A stretch of DNA of 54,002 bases from Thiotrichales bacterium (GCA_024763135.1 JANTGD010000001.1:1-54002), one strand, 5' to 3'. Positions 28,133-40,319 are shown, counted from the first letter of the stretch. Numbers and translations are program-made. The notes: generated by a model from the letters alone, not told the origin.

Positions 28133-28377
28133 GCGCAATCCTCCAAGCATATACGGCAGACAAAGCGGACCAGACCGGCGCTTTACACAGGGTATTTGGT
28201 AACTATTCAGCGAGCGGGCGAATCATGAAGTAAAACTGCTCATATTGCTTCTGAAATTTGTCCGATCAAGGCGAAAAATGTGAGTTTACAAATGTAAATA
28301 ACCATTTTTAAACGTGGAGCTGGCGCATTTCAGAGGATAGCTGCGTAGTTACGGTATTTTTTTTGGCTACATCCTTA

Positions 28378-28682
28378 ACTAGTACCTCGTCCAGTTTAAG
28401 GAAGCTTCGATTATTTCAGGCGCGAGCAGATTGTGGTGAAAAATCGCCCAGTTCAAGGCGCGGATCGCACGGAATAGCTGGCTATTGCGAAGATCCGCAA
28501 CGAACAAGTGGGCGATTTTGCACCGTAATCTGCCGTGTTACGAATTGATCAAAGCCTCTTAATATGACGGAGTCAGTTGCAGTGCTTGACAAGGACGCTG
28601 CCATTGCCTGCGCACTGCGTATTGATATACGGCATCAACAACAGCCCTGAGCCCGTCTTTTTAAGCTAGACGATGTACTAGT
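28378..28682. repeat. Repeat family A, copy A2: internally deleted and interrupted by a family B element
   Basis: The copy reads ACTAGTACCTCGTCCAGT, then the B element, then TATGACGGAGTCAGTTGCAGTGCTTGACAAGGACGCTGCCATTGCCTGCGCACTGCG...CCCGTCTTTTTAAGCTAGACGATGTACTAGT. The ends and right half match A1 at 4301-4570. Confidence 0.7.
28396..28562. mobile_element. Repeat family B, copy B3 (167 bp), nested inside A2
   Basis: Runs TTAAGGAAGCTTCGATTATTTC ... GAATTGATCAAAGCCTCTTAA. It sits at the position where intact A1 reads AGCTTAAAATGACGG, and TTAA is present on both sides of the insert. Confidence 0.8.
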
Positions 28683-28854
28683 GTAGTGTTTCGACGGATT
28701 ATGGCTAAGCCCTGGCCTGTACGATTCGAAGTATAACCAGAAACTTTATGTTTCTCGGACAACCTCAAATAGTTTCATAAAGATTCGAGTGGATGGCGCG
28801 CCTCAATTTCACGAGAGTTGCATCCGAATCTATTTCGACGAGGTATCAGAAGAT

Positions 28855-30690
28855 TCAGACTTCATGCAGATCCTGAGTTGCCAAACAAGCGTCGATACTC
28901 GCTGCCACGCGATGCCCATCAGCCACGGCGTGCACCACATCGGGACCATTAACACAATCTCCCGCGGACCACAGCCAAGGTTCAGAAGTCCGACCTGCTT
29001 CATCGACCTTCAAGCGTCCACGATTCCACTCCAACGCTTCGGTCAGATCTTCGCCGAGTAGAGACACATCCGCCATTTGACCGATGGCCTCAACCACCAT
29101 TTCACCCTCATGAAACTGTTCATCTGAACTATCGTACTGAGGTGCAAACCGATGCTGCTCATCGAAAATAGACAGAACACGCCACGTACACAATCCGTTG
29201 AGCCGCCCCTGATCATCAATGCGACACGCTTGGGGGCCCCGACTATCAAGTATCGTCACGCCTTCCTCCAGAGCCTCTTTCACTTCGACTGGATCCGCCA
29301 AAAACTGATCCCTGGGTTCCAGCGCTGTCAGCGTAATCTGAACCTCGCCATAGGTTTGCTTCTGTAAGCGTGCCAGAGACCGAGCAATATCCATGGCGAC
29401 GTTTCCACCGCCAATGACAACTGCACTCTTCGGAATGTCAAAGGGTTCTCGCAGCGTAATCATGCGCAGCAAATCTACTGCGGCCTTGACCTGGATATGC
29501 TCAGACCCAGGAATCCGAGTCGATCGCCCCAACTGCAGCCCAATGGCAAGTACGACGGCATCGAATTCATCGCGCAACGAACTCATGCTGCGATCTTTCC
29601 CAATCTCACATTGGTAATGAATTTTCACGCCAAGCGAGGTTATCACATCAATGTCCTGATCCAATTTGTCATAGGGCAAACGGTATTCAGGAATTCCAAA
29701 CCGAGGCATGCCGCCAGCTTTTTCCAAGCGTTCGAATACTTCCACTTCATGCCCTTTCTTGACAAGGTCGAAGGCCGCAGTCAAACCCGCAGGACCCGAG
29801 CCAATCACTGCGATCCGTTTCCCCGTCGGGACCTGGACCCGGCCTTCCGCAGCAATCTGCTTCACCCGCTCATGATCCACCGCATCCATGGCATACCGTT
29901 TTAACCAGCGAATCGCAATGGGTTCCCCACGGTGCCCAATTGAACATGCCGTCTCGCAGCGATGTGTACATACGCGCCCGCAAACATGAGAAAACGGGTT
30001 GCTTTGATACATCCATCGGACGGCATCTTCCGGGCGGCCTTCCCATATCGAACGAATATACTCCGGTGCATCCATATGGGTGGGGCAGGCATCATGACAC
30101 ATACCACATTGCACGCAGCGAGAAGCTTCCAACAAGGCGTGCTGCGCATCATAGCCCGCAACGATTTCATCGAAATTGTCACTGCGACTTTGTGGCTCCA
30201 ACTCTGGCATTTCCTCACGCTCCAAATCCACCAGATCGGTGGTTGGCGTCTTGGTCCAACCTTCGGGATACGGGGTGCCATGCATACCATCGGCGCTTGG
30301 CAGCATGAAATAACTGTCGAGCTGATCCTCCGTACAGACATGCACATATTCGCGAGACAGACTAATCGCAGCAGTAGGACAGACATCCACACACAAAGCA
30401 CACCAACAACAGCGACCATAATCAATTGCCGGACGCAGTGGGCGAATGCCCTTGATGGGGTCCTCTTTGGCCTCCGGGACATGCACCATCGTAATGGCTG
30501 CATTATCACAAACTTTCTGACAAGTCCCGCAACCGATACAGGACTCCCAATCGTTCAAATGAAACCCGCGATAAGTCTCCGTAGCCGGTCGCGGCCCAAG
30601 CGGTTCAGTAACCGGTTTGCGTGCAAAGAACTGCAGCGTCTTGAGGGGATTTAAAATACTCCCCTTGTCTTTGTATTTGATATCTGACAT
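28855..30690 (-). CDS. Fusion protein: NuoI/MbhN-type 2x[4Fe-4S] ferredoxin domain plus GltD/SudA-like NAD(P)H-dependent FAD oxidoreductase
   Basis: N-terminus has CIGCGTCQKVCD and CCWCALCVDVCP. It is followed by the GltD N-terminal Fe-S region (CVQCGMCHDACP, NPFSHVCGRVCTHRCETAC), the FAD motif VIGSGPAGLTAA and the NAD(P)H motif VIGGGNVAMDIA. Start placed at the ATG at 30690 (MSDIKYK), sharing 1 nt with the upstream stop (TGATG). Confidence 0.8.
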   Translation of the reverse strand: MSDIKYKDKGSILNPLKTLQFFARKPVTEPLGPRPATETYRGFHLNDWESCIGCGTCQKVCDNAAITMVHVPEAKEDPIKGIRPLRPAIDYGRCCWCALCVDVCPTAAISLSREYVHVCTEDQLDSYFMLPSADGMHGTPYPEGWTKTPTTDLVDLEREEMPELEPQSRSDNFDEIVAGYDAQHALLEASRCVQCGMCHDACPTHMDAPEYIRSIWEGRPEDAVRWMYQSNPFSHVCGRVCTHRCETACSIGHRGEPIAIRWLKRYAMDAVDHERVKQIAAEGRVQVPTGKRIAVIGSGPAGLTAAFDLVKKGHEVEVFERLEKAGGMPRFGIPEYRLPYDKLDQDIDVITSLGVKIHYQCEIGKDRSMSSLRDEFDAVVLAIGLQLGRSTRIPGSEHIQVKAAVDLLRMITLREPFDIPKSAVVIGGGNVAMDIARSLARLQKQTYGEVQITLTALEPRDQFLADPVEVKEALEEGVTILDSRGPQACRIDDQGRLNGLCTWRVLSIFDEQHRFAPQYDSSDEQFHEGEMVVEAIGQMADVSLLGEDLTEALEWNRGRLKVDEAGRTSEPWLWSAGDCVNGPDVVHAVADGHRVAASIDACLATQDLHEV

Positions 30691-31832
30691 CAGCGATCCA
30701 CCTCTGGCGGGCACGCATCCAGTGAAAACATAATTTGCGCCACATCTTCGAGCCGCGCACCCTCAGCAAGCCATTCCAAAACCTGGACCGCATGCATGGA
30801 CGACGGCCCGCGGACATGCACTCGATAGGGTTTGTCCCCTCCATTTGAAACAGCATAATAGGCGAGCTCACCCTTGGAGGATTCAACTCGCGCATAGGTT
30901 TCACCTGCCGGTACATTCCAGGCCAGAGGGTTGGGGATCGGCGCCCGGACCGGCCCACCAATCGATGGCAGACGCTCAATAACCTGCCTCAAAATACGAA
31001 AACTTTGCTTCAATTCGGCACGCCGCACCATGGCGCGCGCCCACGCGTCACCTGCCGCTTCGGTAGGCACATCAAATTCGAGCTGTTCATACACCAAATA
31101 AGGATCATCCCGACGTACATCGAACGCCAGCCCGGTAGCCCGAAGATTCGGACCGGTAACACCCCACTCCAGCGCTTGCTCCTGAGTCATTGCGCCCACA
31201 TCCTTAGCACGCGTAATGAACACCTGGTTGGTAAACAAAAGATTGTCATAATCTGGCAGCCGAGATTCGAGGTAATCCAACGTCTGGCTGACCTGCTCCA
31301 AGAATCCTGGTGGAACATCCCGCCGCGTACCCCCTGGGATGTTGAAAATATGATAGACGCGGCCGCCCGTGAGGGCCTCGAATAAATCGAGTATCAGATC
31401 TCGGTCGGCAATTCCCCAATAGCTGGTCGTATACATGCCAGTGGTCGCAGCATGCCCGCCAAAGGTGAACAAATGCGCTGCAATTCGCGAAAGTTCGAGC
31501 TGCAGCACCCGCAGCCACTGAGCGCGTTCTGGCACTTCCAAGCCACACAAGTCCTCTACCGCCATAGAATAGGTGACTTCCATGGGCACGGGATCCGGTA
31601 CACAGATGCGCGGAACCAGGGCAATATTCTGGATCCACAAACGACCCTCCATCAGCTTTTCGAAACCCCGATGGAGATAGCCGCCATCGGCTTTTCCAGC
31701 GAGCACGACATCTCCATGCAATTTGAGTTTGAAGGCATAATTACCTTCGATCCCGGGATGATTGGGTCCGATAAAAAGTTCGTATTCGTTGCTCGGTGGA
31801 TGGCTCTGCGCCTGATAGTTTTCGGGCCTCAT
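30690..31832 (-). CDS. NuoD / group-4 [NiFe]-hydrogenase large-subunit homolog with incomplete metal ligands (MbxL/Ehr-like)
   Basis: Contains GPNHPGIEG, GYLHRGFEKL and NIPGG blocks. The L1 position reads PRICVPDP where hydrogenases have RxCGxC. The C-terminus reads SLDACPPEVDR where hydrogenases have DPCxxCxxR. Start at the ATG at 31832 gives an ATGA overlap with the upstream stop. Confidence 0.8.
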   Translation of the reverse strand: MRPENYQAQSHPPSNEYELFIGPNHPGIEGNYAFKLKLHGDVVLAGKADGGYLHRGFEKLMEGRLWIQNIALVPRICVPDPVPMEVTYSMAVEDLCGLEVPERAQWLRVLQLELSRIAAHLFTFGGHAATTGMYTTSYWGIADRDLILDLFEALTGGRVYHIFNIPGGTRRDVPPGFLEQVSQTLDYLESRLPDYDNLLFTNQVFITRAKDVGAMTQEQALEWGVTGPNLRATGLAFDVRRDDPYLVYEQLEFDVPTEAAGDAWARAMVRRAELKQSFRILRQVIERLPSIGGPVRAPIPNPLAWNVPAGETYARVESSKGELAYYAVSNGGDKPYRVHVRGPSSMHAVQVLEWLAEGARLEDVAQIMFSLDACPPEVDR

Positions 31833-32392
31833 CGACGCACCTCCTCGGGCCGGATCGCCACGCCACCCCCCTCTTCCTCCAGCTCCTTGAGCCAATCCGG
31901 GTGATAAGACTGCCAGTTGAAGGTTTCCTGTACGTAGGCTTCCGCATCAAAATCCTTACGCATGGGGGGTGGGCCATCCCACTCAGTGAGAATGAATTTT
32001 TCCATATGCGGACTGCCCTCGAAATAGACGCCGAACATTTCAAAAATGTCCCGTTCAAAAAAAGCCGCAGGCTTATACAGATCGTACACCGAAATATATC
32101 GAGCTGTTTCACGAGGAATACGGGTATGCGCCGAAACTAAATGATTAGATTCGTAAGACCATAGGTGGTAAACCAGCTCAAACTCGTTGTCTTCAATCCA
32201 ATCGACACAGCTGATGGCCGAAAGATGCACGTAGGAAGCCCGGCCTTTCAAAAGCTCCAATAAACCAGGCAGTGCCTCACGCGTCACATCGATGCGTACC
32301 CGGCGCGGGCTGGTCTGCCGATACTCGAGGGACTCGAGTTCGCGTAAAATGGTAACCAGGTGCGTGTCTAATTCGCGCTCAGTCATGCTCAA
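31829..32392 (-). CDS. NuoC / hydrogenase 30-kDa subunit homolog (MbhK/MbxK-like)
   Basis: 187 aa. Complex I 30-kDa-like core (LSAISCVDW..FELVYHLWS..ERDIFEMFGVYFEG). Confidence 0.8.
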   Translation of the reverse strand: MSMTERELDTHLVTILRELESLEYRQTSPRRVRIDVTREALPGLLELLKGRASYVHLSAISCVDWIEDNEFELVYHLWSYESNHLVSAHTRIPRETARYISVYDLYKPAAFFERDIFEMFGVYFEGSPHMEKFILTEWDGPPPMRKDFDAEAYVQETFNWQSYHPDWLKELEEEGGGVAIRPEEVRR

Positions 32393-32395
32393 AAC

Positions 32396-33103
32396 TCACT
32401 TTAAGCGCAGTTTATGCGCGACAAGGGGCTGCTGATACTGCTGCAGAATACGCGTATGTTCACCTTCTGTCTCCGGACCGGCCAAACCGTAATGTTGCGC
32501 CTGACCGATGACATCAGTGGGTGTTTGCCAGTTGTCACCAAACAGATGCTGCTGGTTACCCAGGTAATAGTCATAGCGTTGATAGTAATCCTTCCACGGC
32601 TCCGTCTCGCCCGACTGGATATTGGCCATCAACGCGCGCATCCCTTCGATGACGGCCTCTGGTCTCGGCATGCAGCCCGCGATGTATAAATCCACCGGCA
32701 GATATTCACTAAGCTTTTTGGCCGTGGCGTAGCTTTGCCAGTACATCCCGCCATTGACCGTACAAGAGCAAATGCCAATCACATACTTAGGGGAGGGCAT
32801 CTGTTCATAAGTCAAAATAATGCGCTTCAGCGTCTTTACCGAAACATAGCCCGTTACCAATAGAATATCCGCCTGACGCGGCGTCACCATCGGTTGAATC
32901 CCCAAGCGCTCCATGTCAAAGCGTGAGGTCATGGCCGGAGGCAGCTCAATAGCGCCACAACCCGTACAATAGTGCAGCATGTACATAGAACGCGACTGCG
33001 CGAAGCGCACCAGCTCGTCGAAGACACCTGCCAAAGGATTGGTGCGCGCCTCCTCCGGTGCGTGTTTTTCGGTATGAATAGGAATTTTGCTCAGATCGCT
33101 CAT
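32396..33103 (-). CDS. NuoB / hydrogenase small-subunit homolog (MbhJ/MbxJ-like), [4Fe-4S]
   Basis: 235 aa. Cys motifs YCTGCGAIE, GICSCTVNGG and GCMPRPEA occupy the positions of the NuoB N2-cluster ligands. About 40 aa of N-terminal extension. Confidence 0.8.
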   Translation of the reverse strand: MSDLSKIPIHTEKHAPEEARTNPLAGVFDELVRFAQSRSMYMLHYCTGCGAIELPPAMTSRFDMERLGIQPMVTPRQADILLVTGYVSVKTLKRIILTYEQMPSPKYVIGICSCTVNGGMYWQSYATAKKLSEYLPVDLYIAGCMPRPEAVIEGMRALMANIQSGETEPWKDYYQRYDYYLGNQQHLFGDNWQTPTDVIGQAQHYGLAGPETEGEHTRILQQYQQPLVAHKLRLK

Positions 33104-33115
33104 CGGCTTACCTCT

Positions 33116-34006
33116 TTAATACATAACGAATGCGATGCCCAGCAATCCAGCCAATACTGGCCACTTCCACATTAGGCGTAGCATATCTTCAGTGCGATAG
33201 CGGGGGAATGTAAAAGCAATCATCATGGGAATAGCAACAACCGCAAAAATCTTGATTAGAAAATCTAACCAATGGGTGCCCCCACCTAGAAACAAGGTCG
33301 TATACAGCACACCCGCGGTATACAGTTGGAAACACTGCATGACAAAAAGCCCGCCCATGTACTTACCGCCCATTTCCACCATTGGGCCGGTGGCAATTTC
33401 AGCGGGCGCCACATAGATCTCGAACGGCTGTTTACCCATCATGCCTTGGAGTGCAAACAGTCCAGCCAATGCCAACAGTGGCATTTCAAAGGCCCCCCAG
33501 CCTTGGGCCTGTTGCAGGCTGATCATCTCTGACAAATCCGTGGTGCCGTAATGCCAGGCCACACCAAAAATCACGATGACAAAAGGGATGTCATAGGCGA
33601 GCATGGCAGTCAAAGCACGAGAAATTCCGATCGATCCATTGGGATTAGCGCATTGCCCCACACCCAATGCCAACCCCAGCGAAGGAATCATAAGAAAATA
33701 AGTCAGCGTAATAATACCACCCTTGTCGCTCAGACCATCCATGCCCGGCACGGGTAGTAAGCTTTCCGCCGCCAAGTACCCACCCACGGCCATAATAATA
33801 CCGATGTCGTGAAGCAACCCATGCGAAACTTGCGTAGTCTTGCTGTAGAATTTGATAATGTCGATTAGAGGTTGAAAAAACGGCGGACCAACACGCCGTT
33901 GTAATTTCGCCGCAATTTTGCGCAGCATCAACACCATAAAAAGTCCGATCACAAAAGCCACAATCGGCATTAAGATAATATCCGCGATCCGCTTTCCAAT
34001 CTCCAT
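33116..34006 (-). CDS. NuoH / MbhM-like membrane subunit
   Basis: Polytopic, with a NuoH-like RRVGPPFFQPLIDIIKF block. Start placed at the internal ATG at 34006 (MEIGKR), sharing 1 nt with the upstream stop (TAATG). Confidence 0.78.
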   Translation of the reverse strand: MEIGKRIADIILMPIVAFVIGLFMVLMLRKIAAKLQRRVGPPFFQPLIDIIKFYSKTTQVSHGLLHDIGIIMAVGGYLAAESLLPVPGMDGLSDKGGIITLTYFLMIPSLGLALGVGQCANPNGSIGISRALTAMLAYDIPFVIVIFGVAWHYGTTDLSEMISLQQAQGWGAFEMPLLALAGLFALQGMMGKQPFEIYVAPAEIATGPMVEMGGKYMGGLFVMQCFQLYTAGVLYTTLFLGGGTHWLDFLIKIFAVVAIPMMIAFTFPRYRTEDMLRLMWKWPVLAGLLGIAFVMY

Positions 34007-35874
34007 TAGCTCACCATCCAAAGCACAATCACGGCCATCGCCAGCATGGGTAAGGCGGGTTGCATTAAACGATAGAAGGTCGCTGACCACTGCGCCAAAA
34101 AGCTCGCCAGTGACGCCACTACGGATTCAAACCACAGAAAACTGCCTCGATACCAGTGCCCGATTCTATGCATCAAGCCCGCGTAGAAATGGTCGGAATA
34201 GTGGTAACGCACATCGGCACTGAGGAAATGTCCACCGGCATAATTATCAAGTTGATGGACCGGCTCTGAACGTCCCGTTGCATAGAACAGCAAAGCACTG
34301 ACCCCGAAACCGGCAAATAACACCAGGACAAGCATTATCATGTCCAACCCCCCATGTGCATCAGCCACACCACCGAGTGTGTGTGGTAGCACCGGCAAGC
34401 CTACTGCTGCCTGCACTGCAGCTACCCAATCCAACACGATCCCAGGCATAAACCCAGTAAGAAAAATGATCAATGCAAGTACCATCATGGGAATGACCAT
34501 ACTCCAGGGGGCCTCTTGCACGGGTTCATGCTCCAGACGCAGCTGCCCAAGAAACGTATTATGAATGAGCTTGTATACCGATAGAATCGTTCCAAGTGTA
34601 CCGATGACCGAGGCCACAAATAATAACGGCATGCCCTCGCTCAGCAACGAACGATACACCATCCATTTAGATACAAAACCATTCATCGGGGGGATACCCG
34701 CTAAACCAATAATGCCCACAAGCATCGCCACAAAAGTCAGGGGCATGCGGGTAAACAAGCCACCAAGTTTATTGAGATCGGCAGTCCCGGTGCGATACAC
34801 CACAGCAAATACCGCCAATAGCAGTACTGCTTGGTTGGTGGCGTAATTAAAGATATGCAGAATACCGCCCGCAGAACCCAATGCGCTTGCCGATAGAATC
34901 CCCATCAGCATGTAGCCACCTTGACCAATGCCGTGCCACGCCAACAACCTGCGCGCATCATTCTGCTTCAGTGCCGTATAGGTGGGCAAGATAATGGTAA
35001 AAGCCGCTATCCACATCAATACATCGCGCAGACTCAGGAATGTTAAAGGGATGTGAACTTCAATCAGCCTGATCAAACCAATCAACTGAACCCAGACCAG
35101 CATCATTCCATAGAGTCCCATTCGGGAAGAAATAGCGCCTAGAAAAGCCATACCTGGCCCGGGCGTTTCTGCATATGCGCCCGCCTGCCAAAGGTGAAAG
35201 GGTAAAATCCCCATTTTTACGGCGAAACCCGCCCCAAAGAGCACGGTAAGCAGAGTAATCAGTCCTACCGACCACTGATCGACCGCGGCCATAAAATCCG
35301 CATAATTCAATGATCCAGTCAAATGGAACACGATACCCAAGGCCGCCAGCATTGACATAGCACCGGCCGTGGCATAGGTGATATAGCGCAAAGACCATTT
35401 CAGAGCGGGACCAGCTGCTAACGCCATAAGTAGAAAGCTGGCCCAACTCACCAGTTCCCAGGCGATAAATAAGGATAAAAAGTCACCGCTAGCCAGCAAC
35501 AACAACATCGTAAACACGTTGAGCGCAAGTGCAAATTGAAGCCAACCAGGTGAGCGACCCGCTGCCCGATAGTGATCACTCCAGGCCCCAGTAGCATAGA
35601 CGCTGCTGACCAATCCAGCTCCTAGCGTAATTAAAGCGAAGTACCAGGACATTGCATCATAGCGCAAGACCAATGGTTGCCCGAACAAATCCCAGGCCAG
35701 CCCGGAAGTAACCGCCGGTGCACCGTAACCCAAAGGCGCCAACAAAAAGAGTACCAGAAGTTGTAGACCTAAACCCAACGAAGCAACATAACCTACCCAA
35801 CGCGTTCTGACTGTCGCCAAAGTAGCGATCAAGGTTCCTAATGCCGTTAACAATAGCGCGTCCAGTAGACTCAT
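34006..35874 (-). CDS. Antiporter-like subunit, MrpD/NuoL-family (second copy, MbxH-prime-like)
   Basis: 622 aa, about 16 or more predicted TM helices, proton-antiporter-M type blocks (FIAWELVSWASFLLM, WHGIGQGGYMLMG). Confidence 0.8.
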   Translation of the reverse strand: MSLLDALLLTALGTLIATLATVRTRWVGYVASLGLGLQLLVLFLLAPLGYGAPAVTSGLAWDLFGQPLVLRYDAMSWYFALITLGAGLVSSVYATGAWSDHYRAAGRSPGWLQFALALNVFTMLLLLASGDFLSLFIAWELVSWASFLLMALAAGPALKWSLRYITYATAGAMSMLAALGIVFHLTGSLNYADFMAAVDQWSVGLITLLTVLFGAGFAVKMGILPFHLWQAGAYAETPGPGMAFLGAISSRMGLYGMMLVWVQLIGLIRLIEVHIPLTFLSLRDVLMWIAAFTIILPTYTALKQNDARRLLAWHGIGQGGYMLMGILSASALGSAGGILHIFNYATNQAVLLLAVFAVVYRTGTADLNKLGGLFTRMPLTFVAMLVGIIGLAGIPPMNGFVSKWMVYRSLLSEGMPLLFVASVIGTLGTILSVYKLIHNTFLGQLRLEHEPVQEAPWSMVIPMMVLALIIFLTGFMPGIVLDWVAAVQAAVGLPVLPHTLGGVADAHGGLDMIMLVLVLFAGFGVSALLFYATGRSEPVHQLDNYAGGHFLSADVRYHYSDHFYAGLMHRIGHWYRGSFLWFESVVASLASFLAQWSATFYRLMQPALPMLAMAVIVLWMVS

Positions 35875-37334
35875 GGCAGCTCCCTCCCGGCACCAAGCAC
35901 CGTGGTGACATACAATTCTCGATCCGCCAGCTGGTCCGCTACTCCCGCCAGCCAGTTACCCACAGGTGTAATCATGACAGTAGCGATCAATAAAACAGCG
36001 CCGAGAATCAGTGACGGCCCCAGACTGCCGGCATCATGCACAGGCACTTTAGCGGACCGTGACTCTGAACCCGCTTTGAATAAGCCAAGTCCAAACCGAA
36101 ACAGATAGTTGGCTTCGAAAACCGTTGCCAGCAAAATAATGCCCGCGCCCGTCCAATATATCCAATTGTCCTGTCCGAGCAGACCGAGTAGCGTCATTAG
36201 TTTCGCCCAAAATCCAGGCAAAGGAGGGACACCAATCAAAGACAATGCAAACAAAATGAACAAGCCGGCAGCCCATGGTGATTTCCACCCCGCGCCGGCC
36301 AATCCGGCAAAGCCCCCAGACCATCGCTCGGCCAATACAAACAATGCGGGTTTGACAATAAGGTGATGCATGGCCACTGCGAGACCAGCGAAGAGTCCTG
36401 CTTGCCCAGGAATGGAAAACGCCATGAGCACCAACCCCAGCTGACCAATGGAAGAGAATGCCAGCATGCGTTCAAAGTCTTTTGCATGCCAGGCAGCCAG
36501 TTCGCCGAGTAATACGCCTAACGCTCCGATAACTAGCAGTAGCGTAAGGGCTTCAGGCTGAGGGAATAATAAGACCAGCAAGCGGATTATCACTATGATT
36601 GCGAGCTTCGAGATCAAGCCTGCCAGCAACGCAGATACTCTTTGCGAAGCCGTCGCGTACACTTCAGGAACCCAGATGTTAACGGGAAACAATTCCGCCT
36701 TCACACCAATCCCCAGCAGTATCAGCACAAACGCTGTGAGGCCCAAAGTATTATCCAGTGTGGTTGCCGAGAGCAGCGTTAAATGTGCGAGGTTGAGCGT
36801 TCCGGTTTGAGTATAGATGAGCGCGATTCCCGTGAGCGCCATCACGGTACCCATGCCACTGATGATGACGTAGCGCAATGTGGCTGCCAGTGCCGCACCT
36901 GTTTTTGGAGCGGCAACCAGTCCAAAGGAGGCCACCGAAACGAGTTCATAGAAAACGTAAAGATTAAACAGATCGCCCGAGAGCGCCATACCGGACGCGG
37001 CGGACACCATTAACAACATCAACGCAGCAACGCGGGCATCGCGCCAGGCTGCATGCGGCCACAATAACAATGCCAGCAAAGAGGTCGCCAACGCAAAAAC
37101 GAGTGCGAGTTGATCCAAATAGAAGGTGATGCCCAACGGAGGCTGAAAGCCACCCAGTTCGATATGACTGGGAACGCCCCCTGAATCTCGCCACAGTACA
37201 ATGACTACCAAACTCGTCAGTAGGAGTAATGCAGGCCCCAATAGCCTCCCTACCCACCCAACACTCCGTGCACCGACCGGCAAAAGAAAAGCCCCCAACA
37301 AGGGCAGCGCGACCACCAATGCGATAAGATTCAC
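35871..37334 (-). CDS. Antiporter-like subunit, MrpD/NuoM-family (MbxH-like)
   Basis: 487 aa polytopic protein with YVFYELVSVASFGLVA and FSSIGQLGLVLMAF blocks typical of MrpD/NuoM/NuoN. Confidence 0.8.
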   Translation of the reverse strand: MNLIALVVALPLLGAFLLPVGARSVGWVGRLLGPALLLLTSLVVIVLWRDSGGVPSHIELGGFQPPLGITFYLDQLALVFALATSLLALLLWPHAAWRDARVAALMLLMVSAASGMALSGDLFNLYVFYELVSVASFGLVAAPKTGAALAATLRYVIISGMGTVMALTGIALIYTQTGTLNLAHLTLLSATTLDNTLGLTAFVLILLGIGVKAELFPVNIWVPEVYATASQRVSALLAGLISKLAIIVIIRLLVLLFPQPEALTLLLVIGALGVLLGELAAWHAKDFERMLAFSSIGQLGLVLMAFSIPGQAGLFAGLAVAMHHLIVKPALFVLAERWSGGFAGLAGAGWKSPWAAGLFILFALSLIGVPPLPGFWAKLMTLLGLLGQDNWIYWTGAGIILLATVFEANYLFRFGLGLFKAGSESRSAKVPVHDAGSLGPSLILGAVLLIATVMITPVGNWLAGVADQLADRELYVTTVLGAGRELP

Positions 37335-37798
37335 GAGCGCCCCTCCTCTGCCGCAACCGTCGGCCCGATCACCTCTCTGCCCGAAGGCTCTTCTTGGCTT
37401 AGGTCTCCGGTCACACCAGCTTGAGCATCAATGTCCGCCTGCATGGCAGCACGAATCTCGTCGATATCCAGACTGTGGTAGGCCTCCTTGACTCGAATCG
37501 CCAAGCTGAGCGCCAAGGCCTGAATACCTACTCCGATGACGATCGCTGTCAACACCATCGCCTGAGGGACAGGATCCACCATCTGCTCTGGCCAGACACC
37601 CGCCACCATAATCGGGGCATGCCCATGCAACCGATATCCAGCGATGACCAGCATTAAGTTTGCACCTGCCTCTGCAATTGCTAAAGACAGAATGATGCGA
37701 AAGAGGTGCCGGCTCCAGATAATACCGACTAAACCAATTGCAATCAGACCAATCGCACCGGTATAGAGAATCCATTGAAGGTCGAACACCATACTCAT
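37331..37798 (-). CDS. MrpC / NuoK-like subunit (MbhG-like) with hydrophilic C-terminal tail
   Basis: 155 aa. Three TM helices with an AIAEAGANLMLV core, then an acidic tail of about 50 aa. Confidence 0.72.
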   Translation of the reverse strand: MSMVFDLQWILYTGAIGLIAIGLVGIIWSRHLFRIILSLAIAEAGANLMLVIAGYRLHGHAPIMVAGVWPEQMVDPVPQAMVLTAIVIGVGIQALALSLAIRVKEAYHSLDIDEIRAAMQADIDAQAGVTGDLSQEEPSGREVIGPTVAAEEGRS

Positions 37799-38481
37799 GT
37801 TTCACTACCCTCGTACACAAGATGCGCTAAAAGTCCCGCTAATTCCGCTCCCACTTTAAGCCCCAAAACGAGATACAAAATCGGTAATGAGCCGGCGGAG
37901 AGTAATTGCCCCGGGCTTCCCGTCCCAAACAGGGGTTGAAGAAACGCCCCGCCTTGAAACAGTGCGATCAGGCCAATTACAATAAATGCACTACCGGCCA
38001 AACCTTCTGTCACGGCCAAACCAAAGTGCCTGACCTGAATGCCCGGACGCGCCAGAAGGGGCAGAAAAAAAGCAGCCGCCAAAATGACGCCACCTTGAAA
38101 ACCACCCCCTGGCGTAAGGTGGCCATGCAGGATAATGTAAAATCCAATCACGAGCATGAGCGGAAAAAGTAGCTGTGTACTGATTCGTAACACGTTGCCC
38201 GCCGGCGCTTGGGCTTGACGCTTTCCACCGCGACGTTCCAATACGAGTCCCGCGACCAGCGAAGCAGTAAAGAGAATCGCAATTTCTCCCAAGGTATCAA
38301 TACCGCGATACCCTAAGACGACAGCCGTTACGATATTCGCCGTCCCTGTCGTTTCAGGCGCTTCCTGTAAAATGGCCTGACCCACTACCATAGGCGCTGC
38401 GCCTGGTTCGAATTCCGCAACGACCACCAGTAAGAAGAATGCCAATCCCGCAGCGAACAGTGGGCTCGTCAGATTTCTCAT
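37795..38481 (-). CDS. MbhE-plus-MnhB (MrpB)-like fused membrane subunit
   Basis: 228 aa. IVTAVVLGYRGIDTLGEIAILF (MbhE-type) followed by GHLTPGGGFQGGVILAAAF (MnhB-type). Confidence 0.72.
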   Translation of the reverse strand: MRNLTSPLFAAGLAFFLLVVVAEFEPGAAPMVVGQAILQEAPETTGTANIVTAVVLGYRGIDTLGEIAILFTASLVAGLVLERRGGKRQAQAPAGNVLRISTQLLFPLMLVIGFYIILHGHLTPGGGFQGGVILAAAFFLPLLARPGIQVRHFGLAVTEGLAGSAFIVIGLIALFQGGAFLQPLFGTGSPGQLLSAGSLPILYLVLGLKVGAELAGLLAHLVYEGSET

Positions 38482-38756
38482 CGATTTTTCTCACGTTCAT
38501 CTGTCGCGGACGCTGCGCCCGTCTGCGTTAAACCAAGGCGTCTTAGCGCCAAAGCCAAAATCAAACTCGACAAGCCGGCTCCAACTGCCGCTTCGGTCAT
38601 TGCAACATCCGGTGCTTTAAGGAGCAAAAACAGAACAGACAAAGCCAGCGAGACGACCGATGCTGCGGCAACCGCTGCCACGTGGTTATTAAAAAAGATT
38701 ACCGCCAACGCAGCCAGCAACATGACCACTACCAATAGACCGGTTATCCAAATCAT
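38478..38756 (-). CDS. MbhD-like small membrane subunit (MrpA C-terminal-domain homolog)
   Basis: 92 aa, three TM segments, APDVAMTEAAVGAGLSS block. Confidence 0.65.
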   Translation of the reverse strand: MIWITGLLVVVMLLAALAVIFFNNHVAAVAAASVVSLALSVLFLLLKAPDVAMTEAAVGAGLSSLILALALRRLGLTQTGAASATDEREKNR

Positions 38757-39061
38757 GGCGCTTTACCCTCGGATCGATCCGCTTGCCAGGGTGCCACACC
38801 GGTGACATGCAAGGCACGCGCCAGCGTCGAAGACCCCACAGGACTTGTGAATAACACGAAACCCGCGATGCAGACCAGCTTGGCCCACCAATGTGGATAG
38901 AGCATACCAACCCCGATCAACATGGCGATCACACCCAAAGTGGCTGCTTTTGTCCCGGCCTGAATGCGATTGTAAGTATCTGGCATGCGGACCAAACCTA
39001 AGGCAGCCAAAAATGCAAACAATGCACCTGCAAGCAAAAATAAATCAGCGAAAATTCTCAA
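38753..39061 (-). CDS. MrpG/MnhG-like subunit
   Basis: 102 aa. LGLVRMPDTYNRIQAGTKAATLG signature of PhaG/MnhG. Confidence 0.8.
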   Translation of the reverse strand: MRIFADLFLLAGALFAFLAALGLVRMPDTYNRIQAGTKAATLGVIAMLIGVGMLYPHWWAKLVCIAGFVLFTSPVGSSTLARALHVTGVAPWQADRSEGKAP

Positions 39062-39324
39062 GAATGTTCTCCTTCAATCGCACGTGCTATCGCCACCACC
39101 CCGACAAATGCCAATGCTCCGTACACCAAAGCCACATCCAGATAGACAGGATTCGAGAACCATGCAGCAACGGCCACCAATCCGGCAGTAATTATGACGG
39201 ATAACGTATCGGCGCCGACCACTCGGTCCAATGCGCTCGGCCCCCTGATGAAACGGAAGAATGCCAATGCAATGGCCATCCCTAAAATAATGGCAGCGAG
39301 TACTTCAAGTAGATTCAAACTCAT
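39058..39324 (-). CDS. MrpF/MnhF-like subunit
   Basis: 88 aa. FRFIRGPSALDRVVGADTLS signature. Confidence 0.8.
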   Translation of the reverse strand: MSLNLLEVLAAIILGMAIALAFFRFIRGPSALDRVVGADTLSVIITAGLVAVAAWFSNPVYLDVALVYGALAFVGVVAIARAIEGEHS

Positions 39325-39830
39325 TTCAAAAAGCCCGATATCCAGCGCTCGAATCCCCCTGCGACAGCCTCGGTGACTGCCTGGCGATCCGCTTCTTCTG
39401 GTACATTGATCCAGTGAACTAAGAGGCGCTCCTCTTGCAGCTCGACGGTGAGTGTGCCGGGGGTGAGCGTAATACTGTTTGCCAACAACATGCGCCCCAG
39501 CGACGAGGTCAAGCCCGTGCGCACTTCGACGAAGCCAGGACGAATGGGCAAAGATGGGCTGAGCACCCTCCCCGCAAGATCAAAATTGGCTCGAAGCAGC
39601 GCGTAGAAAAAGTAAACGAGATAAGCGATAAGAAACAGAAAGGCGCGGGGACTGAGAATCAAACCATTGAATACCCCCAATTGCTGACGCGAGACCGCAC
39701 TGACCACAAGCGCCACGAGCAGGCCGGCGAGCAGTTCTTCAGTCGCCAAAGAACCAGTGAGAAGGACCCAGAGCAATAAGCTCGAAAGGAATACAATTGA
39801 GTAGCTGCGTAGGCTTACACGCTGTTCCAT
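39321..39830 (-). CDS. MrpE/MnhE-like subunit (first gene of the operon)
   Basis: 169 aa. ANFDLAGRVLSP...LANSITLTPGTLTV MnhE blocks. Confidence 0.78.
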   Translation of the reverse strand: MEQRVSLRSYSIVFLSSLLLWVLLTGSLATEELLAGLLVALVVSAVSRQQLGVFNGLILSPRAFLFLIAYLVYFFYALLRANFDLAGRVLSPSLPIRPGFVEVRTGLTSSLGRMLLANSITLTPGTLTVELQEERLLVHWINVPEEADRQAVTEAVAGGFERWISGFLK

Positions 39831-39862
39831 AGCCAGGAACCCTTCGTCGATCTAGAGTCCCC

Positions 39863-39891
39863 AGAATAGGGAAACCTTACAACGATTGCAA
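39863..39891 (-). promoter_or_regulatory. Candidate sigma70-type promoter for the 13-gene operon
   Basis: On the minus strand, TTGCAA (39891-39886), a 17-nt spacer, then TATTCT (39868-39863). This lies about 30-60 nt upstream of the ATG at 39830, and a GAAGG Shine-Dalgarno candidate lies between. Pattern match only. Confidence 0.3.
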
Positions 39892-40319
39892 TAAATCGAG
39901 CGACCGCCACACGCGACTACACGTGCACAAGGATTGCGCAAAAACGCCCGCTCTCGGTGCAAAAGAAAAGCTGTATAGCTAGGTTCACGCCGCGGTAGAG
40001 AATCCTTTAAGATCCGCCGTTGACGCACCCCCTACCGCGGACACCGATGCCACCCTAAATCTTGAGCCTGCCGGGAATGTACCTGAACGAGCATCTATAA
40101 TGAATAAGACAGCCCATAGTAAAGCCGAATACAGAACGCCTCAGATTTTTCATGTTAAAGCAATAATTCCGGGGATAGCTCTGGAGTTGCTAAGCAATCC
40201 TAACACCGGGCCGTAACATCTAGAGTGCTCTCCACAGTCAGGATGCTGGGTGCGATTCCCGGTGCTACGTCCCCTTTGCGTTAAAAAATAGTCATTGTTT
40301 GATAAACTTGCGTTCTTTG

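What the first reader, a model, noticed from the sequence alone, without database searches (positions are those of the whole stretch)
28855..39830. 13-gene Mbx/MBS-type (Mrp-coupled, hydrogenase-derived) respiratory complex operon in a gammaproteobacterial genome context
Seen in the sequence: thirteen co-directional minus-strand ORFs run from 39830 to 28855. Eight junctions are 4-nt ATGA-type overlaps, two are 1-nt overlaps (TAATG at 34006, TGATG at 30690), and the remaining gaps are only 3 and 12 nt. This points to one translationally coupled unit. By motif reading, the order is MrpE, MrpF, MrpG, MbhD-like, MbhE/MnhB fusion, MrpC/NuoK, MrpD-like, a second larger MrpD/NuoL-like, NuoH-like, NuoB-like, NuoC-like, NuoD-like and a NuoI-like fusion. 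Established knowledge, as I recall it: this is gene for gene the archaeal Mbx/MBS order A-B-C-D-(E/F)-G-H-H'-M-J-K-L-N, with two antiporter-like H subunits and M placed before J. It is not the Mbh hydrogenase order (one H, M after L). It is not a nuo operon either, because NuoA/E/F/G/J equivalents are absent. Inference: this is an ion-translocating membrane oxidoreductase of the uncharacterised bacterial Ehr/Mbx-like class. Its electron acceptor is unknown; polysulfide, quinone or another substrate are all possible. It is neither a plain Mrp antiporter nor a true hydrogenase.
Basis: partly seen in the sequence, partly recalled or inferred. Interest (0 to 1): 0.85.

Follow-up and report, generated by a model that had tools for sequence, protein, structure and literature searches.

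The report
Bacterial Mbx respiratory complex operon
This is an intact operon for a membrane-bound, ion-pumping "Mbx/MBS-type" redox complex whose electron-input subunit is fused to an NAD(P)H-binding flavoprotein; this gene set has already been described, is widespread in sulfur-oxidizing bacteria, and has never been studied biochemically in bacteria.

Summary

The "NuoI-like fusion" is MbxN joined to an NfnB/GltD-type module (FAD, NAD(P)H site, two [4Fe-4S] clusters). A fourteenth gene for a rubrerythrin-like diiron protein (27629-28150) follows N in 74 of 75 related loci, and one homolog has it fused to N.

The same 14-gene unit occurs from Thermosipho to tubeworm and lucinid symbionts, Chromatiaceae, Thiothrix and Magnetococcales. 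It was described bioinformatically in 2015, and the Riftia symbiont version was called a "putative Mrp-Mbx complex" in 2024. I found no paper reporting biochemistry on a bacterial enzyme.

Most likely it is a reversible, H+/Na+-translocating NAD(P)H:sulfane-sulfur oxidoreductase. The nucleotide is probably NADH. Direction and substrate are inferred, not shown.

Verdict: a real, new member of a known kind, of moderate interest.

The parts
39831..40575 (.). 745-nt non-coding region upstream of mbxA, the presumed promoter/regulatory region. It contains a 28-nt inverted repeat (40322-40349 / 40438-40465).
   Evidence: Sequence read; inverted repeat. The consensus promoter scan was uninformative.
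39321..39830 (-). MbxA (MrpE-like), 169 aa
   Evidence: Pfam MNHE 4.7e-40; NCBIfam PRK08383.
39058..39324 (-). MbxB (MrpF-like), 88 aa
   Evidence: Pfam MrpF_PhaF 2.6e-16.
38753..39061 (-). MbxC (MrpG-like), 102 aa, TTG start
   Evidence: Pfam PhaG_MnhG_YufB 1.7e-23.
38478..38756 (-). MbxD (MbhD; counterpart of the MrpA C-terminal part and of NuoJ), 92 aa
   Evidence: Pfam MbhD 2.7e-18.
37795..38481 (-). MbxE/F (MbhE + MnhB domains), 228 aa
   Evidence: Pfam MnhB 3.1e-21 and MbhE 2.5e-6.
37331..37798 (-). MbxG (MrpC/NuoK-like), 155 aa
   Evidence: Pfam Oxidored_q2 6.5e-22.
35871..37334 (-). MbxH, antiporter-like pump subunit, 487 aa, GTG start
   Evidence: Pfam Proton_antipo_M 8.8e-47. Best PDB match 6u8y_H, 211 bits. 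E130, K212 and K243 of the charged axis are kept.
34006..35874 (-). MbxH', second and larger antiporter-like subunit with a C-terminal extension (helix HL region), 622 aa
   Evidence: Best PDB match 6u8y_X (MbsH'), 179 bits over residues 12-580. E140, K220, H340 and K403 are kept. The TM8 Lys is Arg (R251) throughout clade 1.
33116..34006 (-). MbxM (NuoH-like membrane anchor of the peripheral arm), 296 aa
   Evidence: Pfam NADHdh 5.3e-48. Best PDB match 6u8y_M at 199 bits, against 61 for MbhM.
32396..33103 (-). MbxJ (NuoB-like), carries the proximal [4Fe-4S] cluster, 235 aa
   Evidence: 6u8y_J at 221 bits, aligned without gaps. 'YCTGCGAIE' matches MbsJ 'FCTGCGGIE'. Cysteines C46, C49, C114 and C144, plus an extra C112.
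31829..32392 (-). MbxK (NuoC-like), 187 aa (185 aa if the ATG at 32386 is the start)
   Evidence: Pfam Complex1_30kDa 6.6e-29; gene call of 185 aa.
30690..31832 (-). MbxL (NuoD / NiFe large-subunit-like, without a NiFe site), 380 aa
   Evidence: 6u8y_L at 403 bits. 'RICVPDP' (C77) and 'DACPPEVDR' (C374) are the two cysteines kept in MbsL. Nqo4 H38 is Glu and Y87 is Val here.
28855..30690 (-). MbxN fusion, 611 aa. Residues about 40-115 form the NuoI/MbsN-like 2x[4Fe-4S] domain. Residues about 170-274 form the Fer4_20 domain with 2x[4Fe-4S]. Residues 292-588 form the FAD/NAD(P)H domain (NfnB/SudA/GltD type).
   Evidence: Pfam. NCBIfam PRK13984 matched end to end at 796 bits, below the curated cut-off of 946. 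PDB sequence matches: 6u8y_N 77 bits, 4ylf_B 219 bits, 5jca_L 207 bits. Sixteen invariant Cys. AlphaFold2 model pLDDT 86.5, pTM 0.82. Foldseek best match 5jca_L, TM 0.88.
28151..28854 (.). Unusually long N-to-Rbr spacer filled with intergenic repeat elements
   Evidence: Copies at 23920-24087, 17709-17880, 4301-4571 and 20-113. In related loci this gap is mostly under 100 nt.
27629..28150 (-). Rubrerythrin/ferritin-like diiron protein, 173 aa, no Cys and no rubredoxin domain: the conserved fourteenth gene
   Evidence: Pfam Rubrerythrin 2.1e-12. It follows N on the same strand in 74 of 75 loci and in Thermosipho. E35, E64xxH67, E123 and E153xxH156 are conserved in at least 95% of 73 homologs. 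It is fused to N in P0124.

Best explanation
This is a 14-gene bacterial Mbx operon encoding a complex-I-like membrane enzyme built on the archaeal MBS (membrane-bound sulfane reductase) chassis.

SHOWN FROM SEQUENCE
- The membrane arm is a complete Mrp-type module (A, B, C, D, E, G) plus two antiporter-like pump subunits (H, H') and the anchor M.
- The peripheral arm is J-K-L-N.
- N is fused to an NfnB/GltD-type flavoprotein.
- The cofactor chain therefore reads: NAD(P)H site, FAD, two [4Fe-4S] (Fer4_20 domain), two [4Fe-4S] (MbxN domain), then the proximal [4Fe-4S] in J, next to a NiFe-less L.

INFERRED
- The enzyme exchanges electrons between NAD(P)H and sulfane sulfur (polysulfide or an organic persulfide) at the MBS-type proximal cluster.
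- The nucleotide is probably NADH, because a Glu replaces the 'YRR' 2'-phosphate motif.
- The redox reaction is coupled to H+ pumping through H and H' and to Na+/H+ exchange through the Mrp module.
- The NAD(P)H and polysulfide couples lie only about 50 mV apart. The reaction should therefore be readily reversible, with direction set by the ion gradient and the redox state of the cell.
- Forward, it would respire stored sulfur when oxygen or nitrate is short. Backward, it would draw on the ion-motive force to make NAD(P)H from sulfide or polysulfide.
- The rubrerythrin-like diiron protein is a bound accessory of the flavoprotein. It most likely scavenges O2 or H2O2 at an oxygen-sensitive flavin/FeS module.
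For: Family placement:
- Pfam families and the gene order A-B-C-D-E-G-H-H'-M-J-K-L-N.
- MBS (6U8Y) is the best solved match, by large margins, for L, J, M, H, H' and the N-terminal part of N.

Catalytic site:
- L keeps exactly the two cysteines that MbsL keeps (C85 and C385 equivalents).
- It lacks the complex I quinone ligands: H38 is Glu and Y87 is Val.
- J has the MbsJ CxxC spacing that leaves the cluster with three Cys ligands in MBS (PMC7684303).

Input module:
- N carries 16 invariant Cys plus FAD and NAD(P)H glycine motifs across homologs down to 33% identity.
- The model is confident (pTM 0.82). Its flavoprotein half superposes on NfnI-L, NfnB and GltD at TM 0.85-0.88.
- E458 sits at the end of beta2 where NfnB has YRR, in the window and in every locus where the motif could be read (about 70 of the 80 proteobacterial loci); Thermosipho has a Glu at the same place.

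Pumping residues are mostly kept.

Conservation:
- The 14-gene synteny is kept in about 80 proteobacterial species genomes and in Thermosipho.
- The carriers are predominantly sulfur oxidizers.

The Rbr-like protein:
- N and Rbr are fused in P0124.
- NCBIfam PRK12775, which covers an NfnA-like, an NfnB-like and a ferritin domain in one protein, matches Rbr weakly (22.5 bits, E 2e-5) over its ferritin domain.

Physiology from the literature:
- T. maritima mbxA rises 4.4-fold on S0 addition (PMC9431562).
- The Endoriftia Mrp-Mbx is co-expressed with sulfur-globule proteins, Hyd1e/3b, a V-type ATPase and the rTCA cycle (PMC11636981).
Against: - No activity has been measured for any bacterial Mbx. 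The sulfane substrate is extrapolated from a 50-60% identical archaeal enzyme that uses ferredoxin, not NAD(P)H.
- With NAD(P)H as donor, the standard free energy (about -10 kJ per 2 e-) is too small to drive two pumps plus an Mrp module in the forward direction.
- J in this clade has an extra Cys (C112, 'CSC'). It could restore four-Cys ligation and remove the catalytic open iron site.
- The closest structural relatives of the flavoprotein are electron-bifurcating enzymes, so the electron path may be more complex than a linear wire.
- Sulfur globules of many thiotrophs are periplasmic, whereas the MBS site opens to the cytoplasmic/membrane side.
- In the window, a 704-nt repeat-filled spacer separates Rbr from N.
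Confidence: 0.5

Rival explanations
1. It is a ferredoxin:NAD(P)+ oxidoreductase with an Rnf-like role. Forward, reduced ferredoxin reduces NAD(P)+ and ions are exported. Backward, the ion gradient drives NAD(P)H-dependent ferredoxin reduction for the rTCA cycle or nitrogenase.
For: - This is the function assigned in the literature to Mbx and to the bacterial gltD-type version (PMC4758237; bioRxiv 10.1101/322537; PMC6349859).
- The Endoriftia ortholog is co-expressed with the ferredoxin-dependent rTCA cycle (PMC11636981).
- The flavoprotein half is closest to NfnB/NfnI-L, which exchange electrons with ferredoxin.
Against: - P. furiosus Mbx was re-assigned from a ferredoxin:NADP+ role to polysulfide reduction (MBS; PMC7684303, PMC8165549).
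- In this enzyme family, ion pumping is driven by chemistry at the L/J/M pocket. A ferredoxin-to-FAD path through N alone would bypass J and L.
- J and L are nevertheless the best-conserved subunits: L 69-86% and J 63-81% identity within clade 1.
- The MbxN surface that docks ferredoxin in MBS is where the flavoprotein is fused.
Confidence: 0.2
2. It is an alternative NAD(P)H:quinone oxidoreductase: a complex-I analogue in which an NfnB/GltD-type flavoprotein replaces NuoEFG.
For: - The overall logic matches complex I: nucleotide, flavin, FeS chain, NuoB/D/H-like pocket, antiporter-like pumps.
- The large NADH-to-quinone energy span would justify two pumps plus an Mrp module.
- The hosts are quinone-containing Pseudomonadota.
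Against: - L lacks both canonical quinone head-group ligands. Nqo4 H38 is Glu and Y87 is Val.
- J has the MBS CxxC spacing rather than the tandem Cys-Cys of NuoB.
- L, J and M score about 1.5- to 5-fold higher against MBS than against any complex I or NDH-1 chain.
- Thermotogota with the same operon are fermenters whose mbx responds to S0 (PMC9431562).
Confidence: 0.12
3. The diiron protein is the real terminal site. On this reading the complex is an NAD(P)H-dependent O2/H2O2-reducing (detoxifying or respiratory) system, or a flavin-based bifurcating enzyme in which the diiron centre takes the high-potential electron and the FeS chain takes the low-potential one.
For: - The Rbr-like gene follows N in 74 of 75 loci and is fused to N in P0124.
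- The diiron ligands are conserved in at least 95% of 73 homologs.
- The nearest structural relatives of the flavoprotein hold a bifurcating FAD.
- NCBIfam PRK12775, a model joining NfnA-like, NfnB-like and ferritin domains, matches Rbr weakly (22.5 bits) over its ferritin domain.
Against: - GltD has the same fold and does not bifurcate.
- No rubredoxin or other relay domain is present in Rbr.
- The window itself has Rbr displaced by 704 nt of repeats.
- This model gives no role to the conserved J/L pocket.
Confidence: 0.06
4. It is a genuine group 4 [NiFe] hydrogenase (Mbh/Hyf/Ech-like), or merely an Mrp cation/proton antiporter.
For: There is weak Pfam NiFeSe_Hases similarity in L (E 0.0035, below the cut-off). 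Seven Mrp-type membrane proteins are present.
Against: - Only two of the four NiFe cysteines remain.
- MbhL scores 139 bits against 403 for MbsL.
- A full J-K-L-M-N peripheral arm is translationally coupled to the Mrp genes.
Confidence: 0.02

Closest known systems
Pyrococcus furiosus MBS (formerly Mbx), membrane-bound sulfane reductase, PDB 6U8Y
   Same: - Same 13-subunit composition and gene order.
- Two antiporter-like subunits (H, H') plus a full Mrp module.
- L keeps the same two vestigial NiFe cysteines.
- J has the same shortened CxxC motif.
- It is the best solved match for L, J, M, H, H' and the N-terminal part of N.
   Different: - Here N is fused to an NfnB/GltD-type FAD/NAD(P)H/2x[4Fe-4S] module. 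The input is therefore a pyridine nucleotide rather than free ferredoxin.
- There is an extra conserved diiron (rubrerythrin-like) protein.
- J carries an extra Cys (C112).
- The H' TM8 Lys is Arg.
- The host is a mesophilic gammaproteobacterium, not a hyperthermophilic archaeon.
Bacterial 'mbx-like' operons: Thermotoga/Thermosipho/Mesotoga MBX, Magnetococcus, and the Endoriftia 'putative Mrp-Mbx complex'
   Same: - Same 14-gene unit, including the gltD-type N and the terminal rubrerythrin (PMC4758237).
- Identity to Thermosipho: N 48%, L 50%, J 61%.
- The N fusions of tubeworm and lucinid symbionts are 70-73% identical.
   Different: None in architecture; the window is an orthologous member from an unnamed gammaproteobacterial lineage. 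It differs only in the repeat-filled 704-nt N-to-Rbr spacer.
Respiratory complex I (Nuo) and photosynthetic NDH-1
   Same: Homologous B, C, D, H, I and K subunits and antiporter-like subunits. The logic is also the same: nucleotide or ferredoxin, FeS chain, then redox-driven pumping.
   Different: - No NuoE/F/G. The flavoprotein is of a different, non-homologous type.
- The peripheral arm sits at the other end of the membrane arm in MBS-type enzymes (PMC7684303).
- No tandem-Cys N2 motif and no H38/Y87 quinone ligands.
- An Mrp Na+ module is present.
NfnB / SudA / GltD family (NfnAB 4YLF, NfnI 5JCA, glutamate synthase beta subunit 6S6S)
   Same: Fer4_20 plus Pyr_redox_2 fold, eight cluster-ligand positions, and FAD and NAD(P)H motifs. 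TM 0.85-0.88 to the solved structures.
   Different: - No NfnA/SudB or GltB partner.
- It is fused N-terminally to a 2x[4Fe-4S] MbxN domain.
- The 'YRR' NADPH motif is replaced by 'ALE'.
P. furiosus MBH and other group 4 [NiFe] hydrogenases
   Same: Mrp-derived membrane arm and a homologous J/K/L/M/N peripheral arm.
   Different: - MBH has one antiporter-like subunit, with M placed after L.
- MBH has four NiFe cysteines and a four-Cys proximal cluster.
- Scores are much lower (MbhL 139, MbhJ 106, MbhM 61 bits).

Membership tests
Mbx/MBS-type membrane-bound oxidoreductase | Thirteen genes in the order A-B-C-D-E(F)-G-H-H'-M-J-K-L-N | tested here: met
   ORFs and Pfam families. The order is identical in Thermosipho and in about 80 proteobacterial loci.
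Mbx/MBS-type membrane-bound oxidoreductase | Two antiporter-like subunits (H and the larger H' with an HL extension), each orthologous to MbsH or MbsH' | tested here: met
   H matches 6u8y_H at 211 bits. H' matches 6u8y_X at 179 bits over residues 12-580.
Mbx/MBS-type membrane-bound oxidoreductase | The L subunit retains only two of the four NiFe-ligand cysteines (MbsL C85 and C385) | tested here: met
   'RICVPDP' (C77) and 'DACPPEVDR' (C374) align with MbsL 'RICVPEP' and 'DNCPPDIDR'. These motifs are conserved in all clade 1 loci.
Mbx/MBS-type membrane-bound oxidoreductase | The proximal [4Fe-4S] of J has a shortened CxxC motif, giving three-Cys ligation and an open catalytic iron | tested here: inconclusive
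   The spacing is identical to MbsJ in a gapless alignment ('YCTGCGAIE' against 'FCTGCGGIE'). However, this clade has an extra Cys (C112) two residues before the C93-equivalent ligand. Actual ligation needs a structure or EPR.
Mbx/MBS-type membrane-bound oxidoreductase | Ferredoxin as electron donor via a free-standing MbsN | tested here: not met
   N is fused to an NfnB/GltD-type NAD(P)H flavoprotein. Whether ferredoxin can still dock cannot be tested here.
Mbx/MBS-type membrane-bound oxidoreductase | Polysulfide/sulfane reductase activity coupled to Na+/H+ translocation | not testable with these tools
   Indirect evidence only: S0 induction of T. maritima mbxA (PMC9431562) and the bias of carriers toward sulfur oxidizers.
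Respiratory complex I (Nuo) | NuoE/F/G NADH-FMN input module in the operon | tested here: not met
   No such genes lie between 27629 and 40575. The rest of the genome was not seen.
Respiratory complex I (Nuo) | Tandem Cys-Cys ligation of cluster N2 in NuoB, and the quinone ligands His38 and Tyr87 (T. thermophilus Nqo4 numbering) in NuoD | tested here: not met
   J has C-T-G-C. L has Glu at the H38 position and Val at the Y87 position (alignment).
Group 4 [NiFe] hydrogenase (Mbh/Ech/Hyf) | Four cysteine ligands (two CxxC motifs) in the large subunit | tested here: not met
   Only C77 and C374 remain. The Pfam NiFeSe_Hases match is below the cut-off.
NfnB/SudA/GltD iron-sulfur flavoprotein family (the C-terminal 450 residues of N) | Fer4_20 domain with two [4Fe-4S] motifs plus a two-dinucleotide-binding-domain FAD/NAD(P)H fold | tested here: met
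   Pfam Fer4_20 4.6e-30 and Pyr_redox_2 8.7e-27. Invariant C192/195/198/202 and C237/241/245/249, plus the GxGxxG motifs. Foldseek TM 0.85-0.88.
NfnB/SudA/GltD iron-sulfur flavoprotein family (the C-terminal 450 residues of N) | NADPH specificity motif (Arg pair after beta2) and a partner subunit (NfnA/SudB or GltB) | tested here: not met
   'YRR' is 'ALE' in the window and in every proteobacterial N fusion where the motif could be read; Thermosipho has 'SLE'. No NfnA- or GltB-like gene is in the operon.
Rubrerythrin/ferritin-like diiron proteins (gene 14) | Four-helix bundle with E, ExxH, E, ExxH diiron ligands; classical rubrerythrin also has a rubredoxin domain | tested here: met
   Pfam Rubrerythrin 2.1e-12. 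E35, E64xxH67, E123 and E153xxH156 are conserved in at least 95% of 73 homologs. The rubredoxin domain is absent and there are no Cys, so this is an 'erythrin-like' protein rather than a classical rubrerythrin.

The most novel reading that the evidence does not exclude
In thiotrophic autotrophs the complex may run backwards. On this reading it is an ion-motive-force-driven sulfide/polysulfide:NAD(P)+ oxidoreductase, which oxidises sulfide or sulfane sulfur at the open iron of the J cluster and delivers the electrons to NAD+ through the fused flavoprotein.

That would be a short cut for 'reverse electron transport'. It would bypass the quinone pool and complex I and make reducing power for CO2 fixation at a fraction of the usual energetic cost. 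The diiron protein would guard the flavin/FeS module against oxygen, or act as a redox switch.

My evidence is compatible with this: near-equilibrium energetics, enrichment in sulfur oxidizers, and a possible switch from NADPH to NADH specificity. None of it shows the direction.
Probability: 0.2. Interest if true: 0.8.

Novelty: new member of a known kind. Interest (0 to 1): 0.4.

Why it matters
Bacterial Mbx complexes are common in ecologically important sulfur oxidizers, including tubeworm and lucinid symbionts, Chromatiaceae, Thiothrix, Thiomargarita and Magnetococcales. Their substrate, nucleotide specificity, coupling ion and physiological direction are nevertheless unknown.

Three findings turn a vague annotation ("NADH dehydrogenase / glutamate synthase small chain") into a concrete enzyme model that can be tested:
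- the input module is an NfnB-type flavoprotein, probably NADH-specific;
- the catalytic pocket is MBS-like rather than quinone-like;
- a diiron protein is a conserved fourteenth component.

If the enzyme links NAD(P)H directly to sulfane sulfur with ion coupling, energy budgets for chemosynthetic symbioses would change. It would also give a second, independent example of a nucleotide-input module being grafted onto the ancestral complex-I chassis.

The window itself adds only one more member from an unnamed gammaproteobacterium.

Tried and rejected
- **Promoter and terminator consensus scans over 27000-41500.** Promoter-like hits were fewer than in shuffled sequence and terminator-like hits only about 1.8 sd above it, and none lay in the two long non-coding stretches that could hold the operon's signals. 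Uninformative about transcription units.
- **Rfam over the whole window.** No family reached its gathering score.
- **Naming the organism by exact-sequence cluster look-up.** All window proteins are singletons without names. The only other contig carrying N is a 6-kb Logan assembly of SRR19843167. Taxonomy therefore had to come from SecY homologs.
- **Conserved neighbours beyond gene 14.** I clustered flanking ORFs from 80 loci. Nothing recurs apart from the Rbr-like gene, so the flanks give no functional hint.
- **Canonical NuoD, Mbh/Hyf hydrogenase or plain Mrp.** Considered and rejected on PDB score margins and on active-site residues.
- **Recent horizontal island.** Considered and rejected. 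The operon's G+C (0.50-0.54) matches the flanking core genes uvrA, ssb, rpoA and secY, unlike the 0.36-0.37 G+C O-antigen cluster at 8.5-17.7 kb.
- **Biochemistry on a bacterial Mbx in the literature.** Searched for and not found.

Full report
**1. Observation**

The window carries thirteen co-directional minus-strand ORFs from 39830 to 28855.

I recomputed the junctions:
- Eight are 4-nt overlaps.
- Two are 1-nt overlaps, at 34006 and 30690.
- The other two are gaps of 12 nt and 3 nt.

Three starts are TTG or GTG rather than ATG (C, H and K). K more likely begins at the ATG two codons downstream, as in an independent gene call of 185 aa. Most starts are preceded by GGAG/GAGG-like sequence.

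Each predicted Pfam family was found above its curated threshold. The G+C of the operon (0.50-0.54) equals that of the surrounding core genes. The flanks are housekeeping genes:
- Upstream: an (R)-SAM hydrolase-type gene, rpoA, rpsD and secY.
- Downstream: uvrA and ssb.

The named SecY relatives are a Thiotrichales MAG (91%) and Thioalkalivibrio (81%). The gammaproteobacterial context is therefore confirmed. No close genome was found in the species-representative collection; the best N-fusion identity there is 73%.

**2. What the thirteen genes are**

I compared the subunits with every solved structure. In each case P. furiosus MBS (6U8Y) is the top hit, well ahead of complex I, NDH-1, Mrp, MBH and FHL.

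| Subunit | MBS (6U8Y), bits | Next best matches, bits |
|---|---|---|
| L | 403 | Nqo4 256; MbhL 139 |
| J | 221 | NdhK 117; MbhJ 106 |
| M | 199 | MbhM 61; ND1/NuoH about 40 |
| H | 211 (MbsH) | MrpD 166 |
| H' | 179 (MbsH', residues 12-580) | MrpD / MbhH 118 |
| N, residues 4-126 | 77 (MbsN) | MbhN 45 |

The MBS structure paper (PMC7684303) gives the features that separate MBS from MBH and complex I. I checked each against the window.

- **L cysteines.** L keeps only two of the four NiFe cysteines. The window has 'RICVPDP' (C77) and 'DACPPEVDR' (C374), aligned with MbsL C85 and C385.
[quoted passage not shown] The window's 'YCTGCGAIE' aligns without gaps to MbsJ 'FCTGCGGIE'.
- **Two pumps.** Two antiporter-like pump subunits are present.
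- **Quinone ligands.** From the alignment to T. thermophilus Nqo4, His38 is Glu and Tyr87 is Val. A complex-I-type quinone site is absent.

Charged-axis residues of the pumps are largely kept:
- H: E130, K212, K243.
- H': E140, K220, H340, K403, with the TM8 Lys replaced by Arg.
- M: equivalents of D196, E203 and E211 are kept. E104 and E193 are not.

**3.

The 611-aa last protein has three parts:
- residues about 40-115: an MbxN/NuoI-type 2x[4Fe-4S] domain;
- residues 170-274: a Fer4_20 domain;
- residues 292-588: a Pyr_redox_2 domain.

It matches the NCBIfam model PRK13984 end to end, at 796 bits against a curated cut-off of 946. Its C-terminal 450 residues match NfnB (4YLF_B, 219 bits), NfnI-L (5JCA_L, 207 bits) and GltD (160 bits).

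I aligned 17 full-length fusions, which go down to 33% identity. Sixteen cysteines are invariant, forming four cluster motifs. The FAD and NAD(P)H glycine motifs are invariant too.

The AlphaFold2 model is confident (pLDDT 86.5, pTM 0.82). Its flavoprotein half superposes on NfnI-L, Xfn, NfnB and GltD at TM 0.85-0.88.

One redox partner is therefore a pyridine nucleotide. The cofactor wire runs from the NAD(P)H site to FAD, then through four [4Fe-4S] clusters in N, to the proximal cluster of J.

One detail bears on specificity:
- NfnB and the more distant N fusions carry 'YRR(R)' after strand beta2 of the nucleotide domain.
- The window has 'ALE' there (E458), as does every proteobacterial locus where the motif could be read (about 70 of 80); Thermosipho has 'SLE'.
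- The model places beta2 at residues 452-455.
- By the general Rossmann-fold rule, an acidic residue there favours NAD(H) and an Arg pair favours NADP(H).
- I therefore infer a shift toward NADH. This is an inference only.

**4.

The ORF at 27629-28150 is a rubrerythrin/ferritin-like protein. It has no cysteines and no rubredoxin domain.

Evidence that it belongs to the unit:
- Among 80 related loci from species-representative genomes, it follows N on the same strand in 74 of 75 cases where both genes are on the contig. The gap is usually under 100 nt.
- The Thermosipho melanesiensis locus has the identical 14-gene arrangement.
- The diiron ligands E35, E64xxH67, E123 and E153xxH156 are conserved in at least 95% of 73 homologs.
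- One representative (P0124, 764 aa) has the rubrerythrin domain fused to the C-terminus of N.
- NCBIfam PRK12775 describes an NfnA-like, an NfnB-like and a ferritin domain in one protein. It matches this ORF weakly (22.5 bits) over its ferritin domain.

The protein is therefore very probably a physical partner of the flavoprotein. No other neighbouring gene is conserved.

In the window the N-to-Rbr spacer is 704 nt. It is filled with repeat elements that recur in four other intergenic spots of the window. This looks like a lineage-specific insertion.

**5. Distribution and prior knowledge**

- Close homologs of the N fusion (69-84% identity) come from Riftia, Lamellibrachia and Escarpia endosymbionts, Ca. 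Thiodiazotropha, Sedimenticola and many metagenomes.
- The 80 best species genomes are all Pseudomonadota and mostly sulfur oxidizers. They include Sedimenticolaceae, Chromatiaceae, Thiothrix, Thiomargarita, Thiobacillaceae, Parasulfuritortus, Hydrogenophilales, Gallionellaceae, Rhodobacteraceae and Magnetococcales.
- At 50% clustering there are about 13 clusters of full-length fusions. They reach Thermotogota, WOR-3 and Spirochaetota.

The architecture is already in the literature:
- Mesotoga Mbx (Theba_1796-1808) was annotated as an NADP:ferredoxin oxidoreductase (bioRxiv 10.1101/322537).
- T. maritima mbxA rises 4.4-fold after S0 addition (PMC9431562).
- The Riftia symbiont's 'putative Mrp-Mbx complex' is co-expressed with the rTCA cycle, Hyd1e/3b, a V-type ATPase and sulfur-globule proteins. 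Its direction in vivo is stated to be unknown (PMC11636981).

I found no paper reporting purification or activity of any bacterial Mbx.

**6. Mechanism**

The following are shown from sequence: the subunit set, the cofactor-binding motifs, the MBS-like J/L pocket, the absence of NiFe and quinone ligands, and conservation of most pump residues.

The following are inferred:
- The enzyme couples NAD(P)H (probably NADH) to sulfane-sulfur chemistry at the J cluster.
- It translocates H+ through H and H', and Na+ through the Mrp module, as proposed for MBS.

Using textbook potentials (NAD(P)+/NAD(P)H about -320 mV; polysulfide/sulfide about -260 to -270 mV), the span is only about 50 mV, or about 10 kJ per 2 e-. 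MBS with ferredoxin has about 42 kJ (PMC8165549). The bacterial enzyme should therefore work close to equilibrium, and the ion gradient can set its direction:
- Forward, it would be anaerobic respiration on stored sulfur.
- Backward, it would be gradient-driven NAD(P)+ reduction by sulfide or polysulfide.

The backward case is the most novel reading that my data do not exclude. I give it a probability of about 0.2.

Rival readings, with my estimates:
- Ferredoxin:NAD(P)+ oxidoreductase, about 0.2. This is the older literature assignment. It fits the rTCA co-expression, but it leaves the best-conserved J/L pocket without a role.
- NAD(P)H:quinone oxidoreductase, about 0.12. It is energetically attractive, but the quinone ligands and the N2-type motif are missing.
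- A scheme centred on the diiron protein as terminal or bifurcation acceptor, about 0.06.

One caveat for the sulfane model: J of this clade has an extra Cys (C112, 'CSC') next to a cluster ligand. It might complete four-Cys ligation.

**7. Verdict**

It is an intact member of a known, widespread and already described bacterial Mbx family. It is not a new architecture.

The remaining interest lies in the family's unknown biochemistry. The window adds little that is unique beyond a displaced fourteenth gene. Novelty: new member of a known kind. Interest: about 0.4.

Noticed in passing
window 28151-28854; copies at 23920-24087, 17709-17880, 4301-4571 and 20-113: The N-to-Rbr spacer is built from at least three short repeat elements (about 95-170 nt, 72-85% identical). 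They recur in other intergenic gaps of the window, and one is partly palindromic. They look like REP/MITE-like elements. Related loci have a gap mostly under 100 nt at this position.
   Followed up: partly
window 40322-40349 / 40438-40465: A 28-nt inverted repeat (89% complementary) encloses 88 nt within the 745-nt non-coding region upstream of mbxA. It could be a terminator of the upstream gene, a regulatory hairpin or a small mobile element.
   Followed up: no
related loci L056-L081 (e.g. L056 Thiothrix caldifontis, L069 Sedimenticola sp., L079 Tropicimonas, L081 Magnetococcales): There is a second, paralogous 14-gene clade. N and Rbr are 54-60% and about 50-75% identical to the window, but L is only 43-51% and M, H and H' about 30%. 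Its L has 'RICVPEPDFNE' and 'SLHTYPPEIER', so the second vestigial Cys is Tyr. Its J has 'FGTGC', leaving three Cys at the MbsJ cluster-motif positions. Some genomes carry both clades: the Thiodiazotropha Spart_193 MAG has L015 and L062.
   Followed up: partly
L047, L048, L053 (Thiotrichaceae / Thiomargarita / a gammaproteobacterial MAG): Here the N fusion and the Rbr-like gene sit together but away from any Mbx membrane genes. In L047 and L053 the neighbours are unrelated genes (polyprenyl synthetase, MIF, HypA, shikimate dehydrogenase); L048's neighbours were not examined. The N-Rbr pair may be a separable module, or the operon is split in these genomes.
   Followed up: partly
protein P0124 (764 aa, unnamed NCBI contig) and NCBIfam PRK12775: P0124 is a natural fusion of MbxN, an NfnB-like module and a rubrerythrin domain in one polypeptide. 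Separately, the NCBIfam model PRK12775 joins NfnA-like, NfnB-like and ferritin domains. The pairing of this flavoprotein type with a diiron domain therefore recurs outside Mbx.
   Followed up: partly
window 32396-33103 (MbxJ), residue C112: Clade 1 J subunits have 'CSCTVNGG' where MbsJ, Thermosipho and clade 2 have 'GSC'. This is an extra cysteine two residues before a cluster ligand, of unknown role.
   Followed up: partly
window 34006-35874 (MbxH'), residue R251: The central TM8 lysine of the second pump subunit (MbsH' K248) is arginine in the window and in about 38 of the 46 H' sequences compared (all of the Arg-type motifs, which track clade 1). This is unusual for a residue thought to shuttle protons.
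   Followed up: no
window about 8500-17700 (G+C 0.36-0.37 against 0.53 in the flanks): This low-G+C block encodes a Wzm/Wzt ABC-transporter-dependent O-antigen/polysaccharide cluster: ABC-2 permease, Wzt with its C-terminal domain, several GT2 glycosyltransferases and a WsaF-type rhamnosyltransferase. It is flanked by rmlABD-type and UDP-glucose dehydrogenase genes. It is probably a horizontally exchanged serotype locus.
   Followed up: partly
window 40576-41364 (-): A SAM hydroxide adenosyltransferase / (R)-S-adenosyl-L-methionine hydrolase family gene lies between the ribosomal-protein/rpoA cluster and the mbx operon. It is not conserved next to mbx in other genomes.
   Followed up: no
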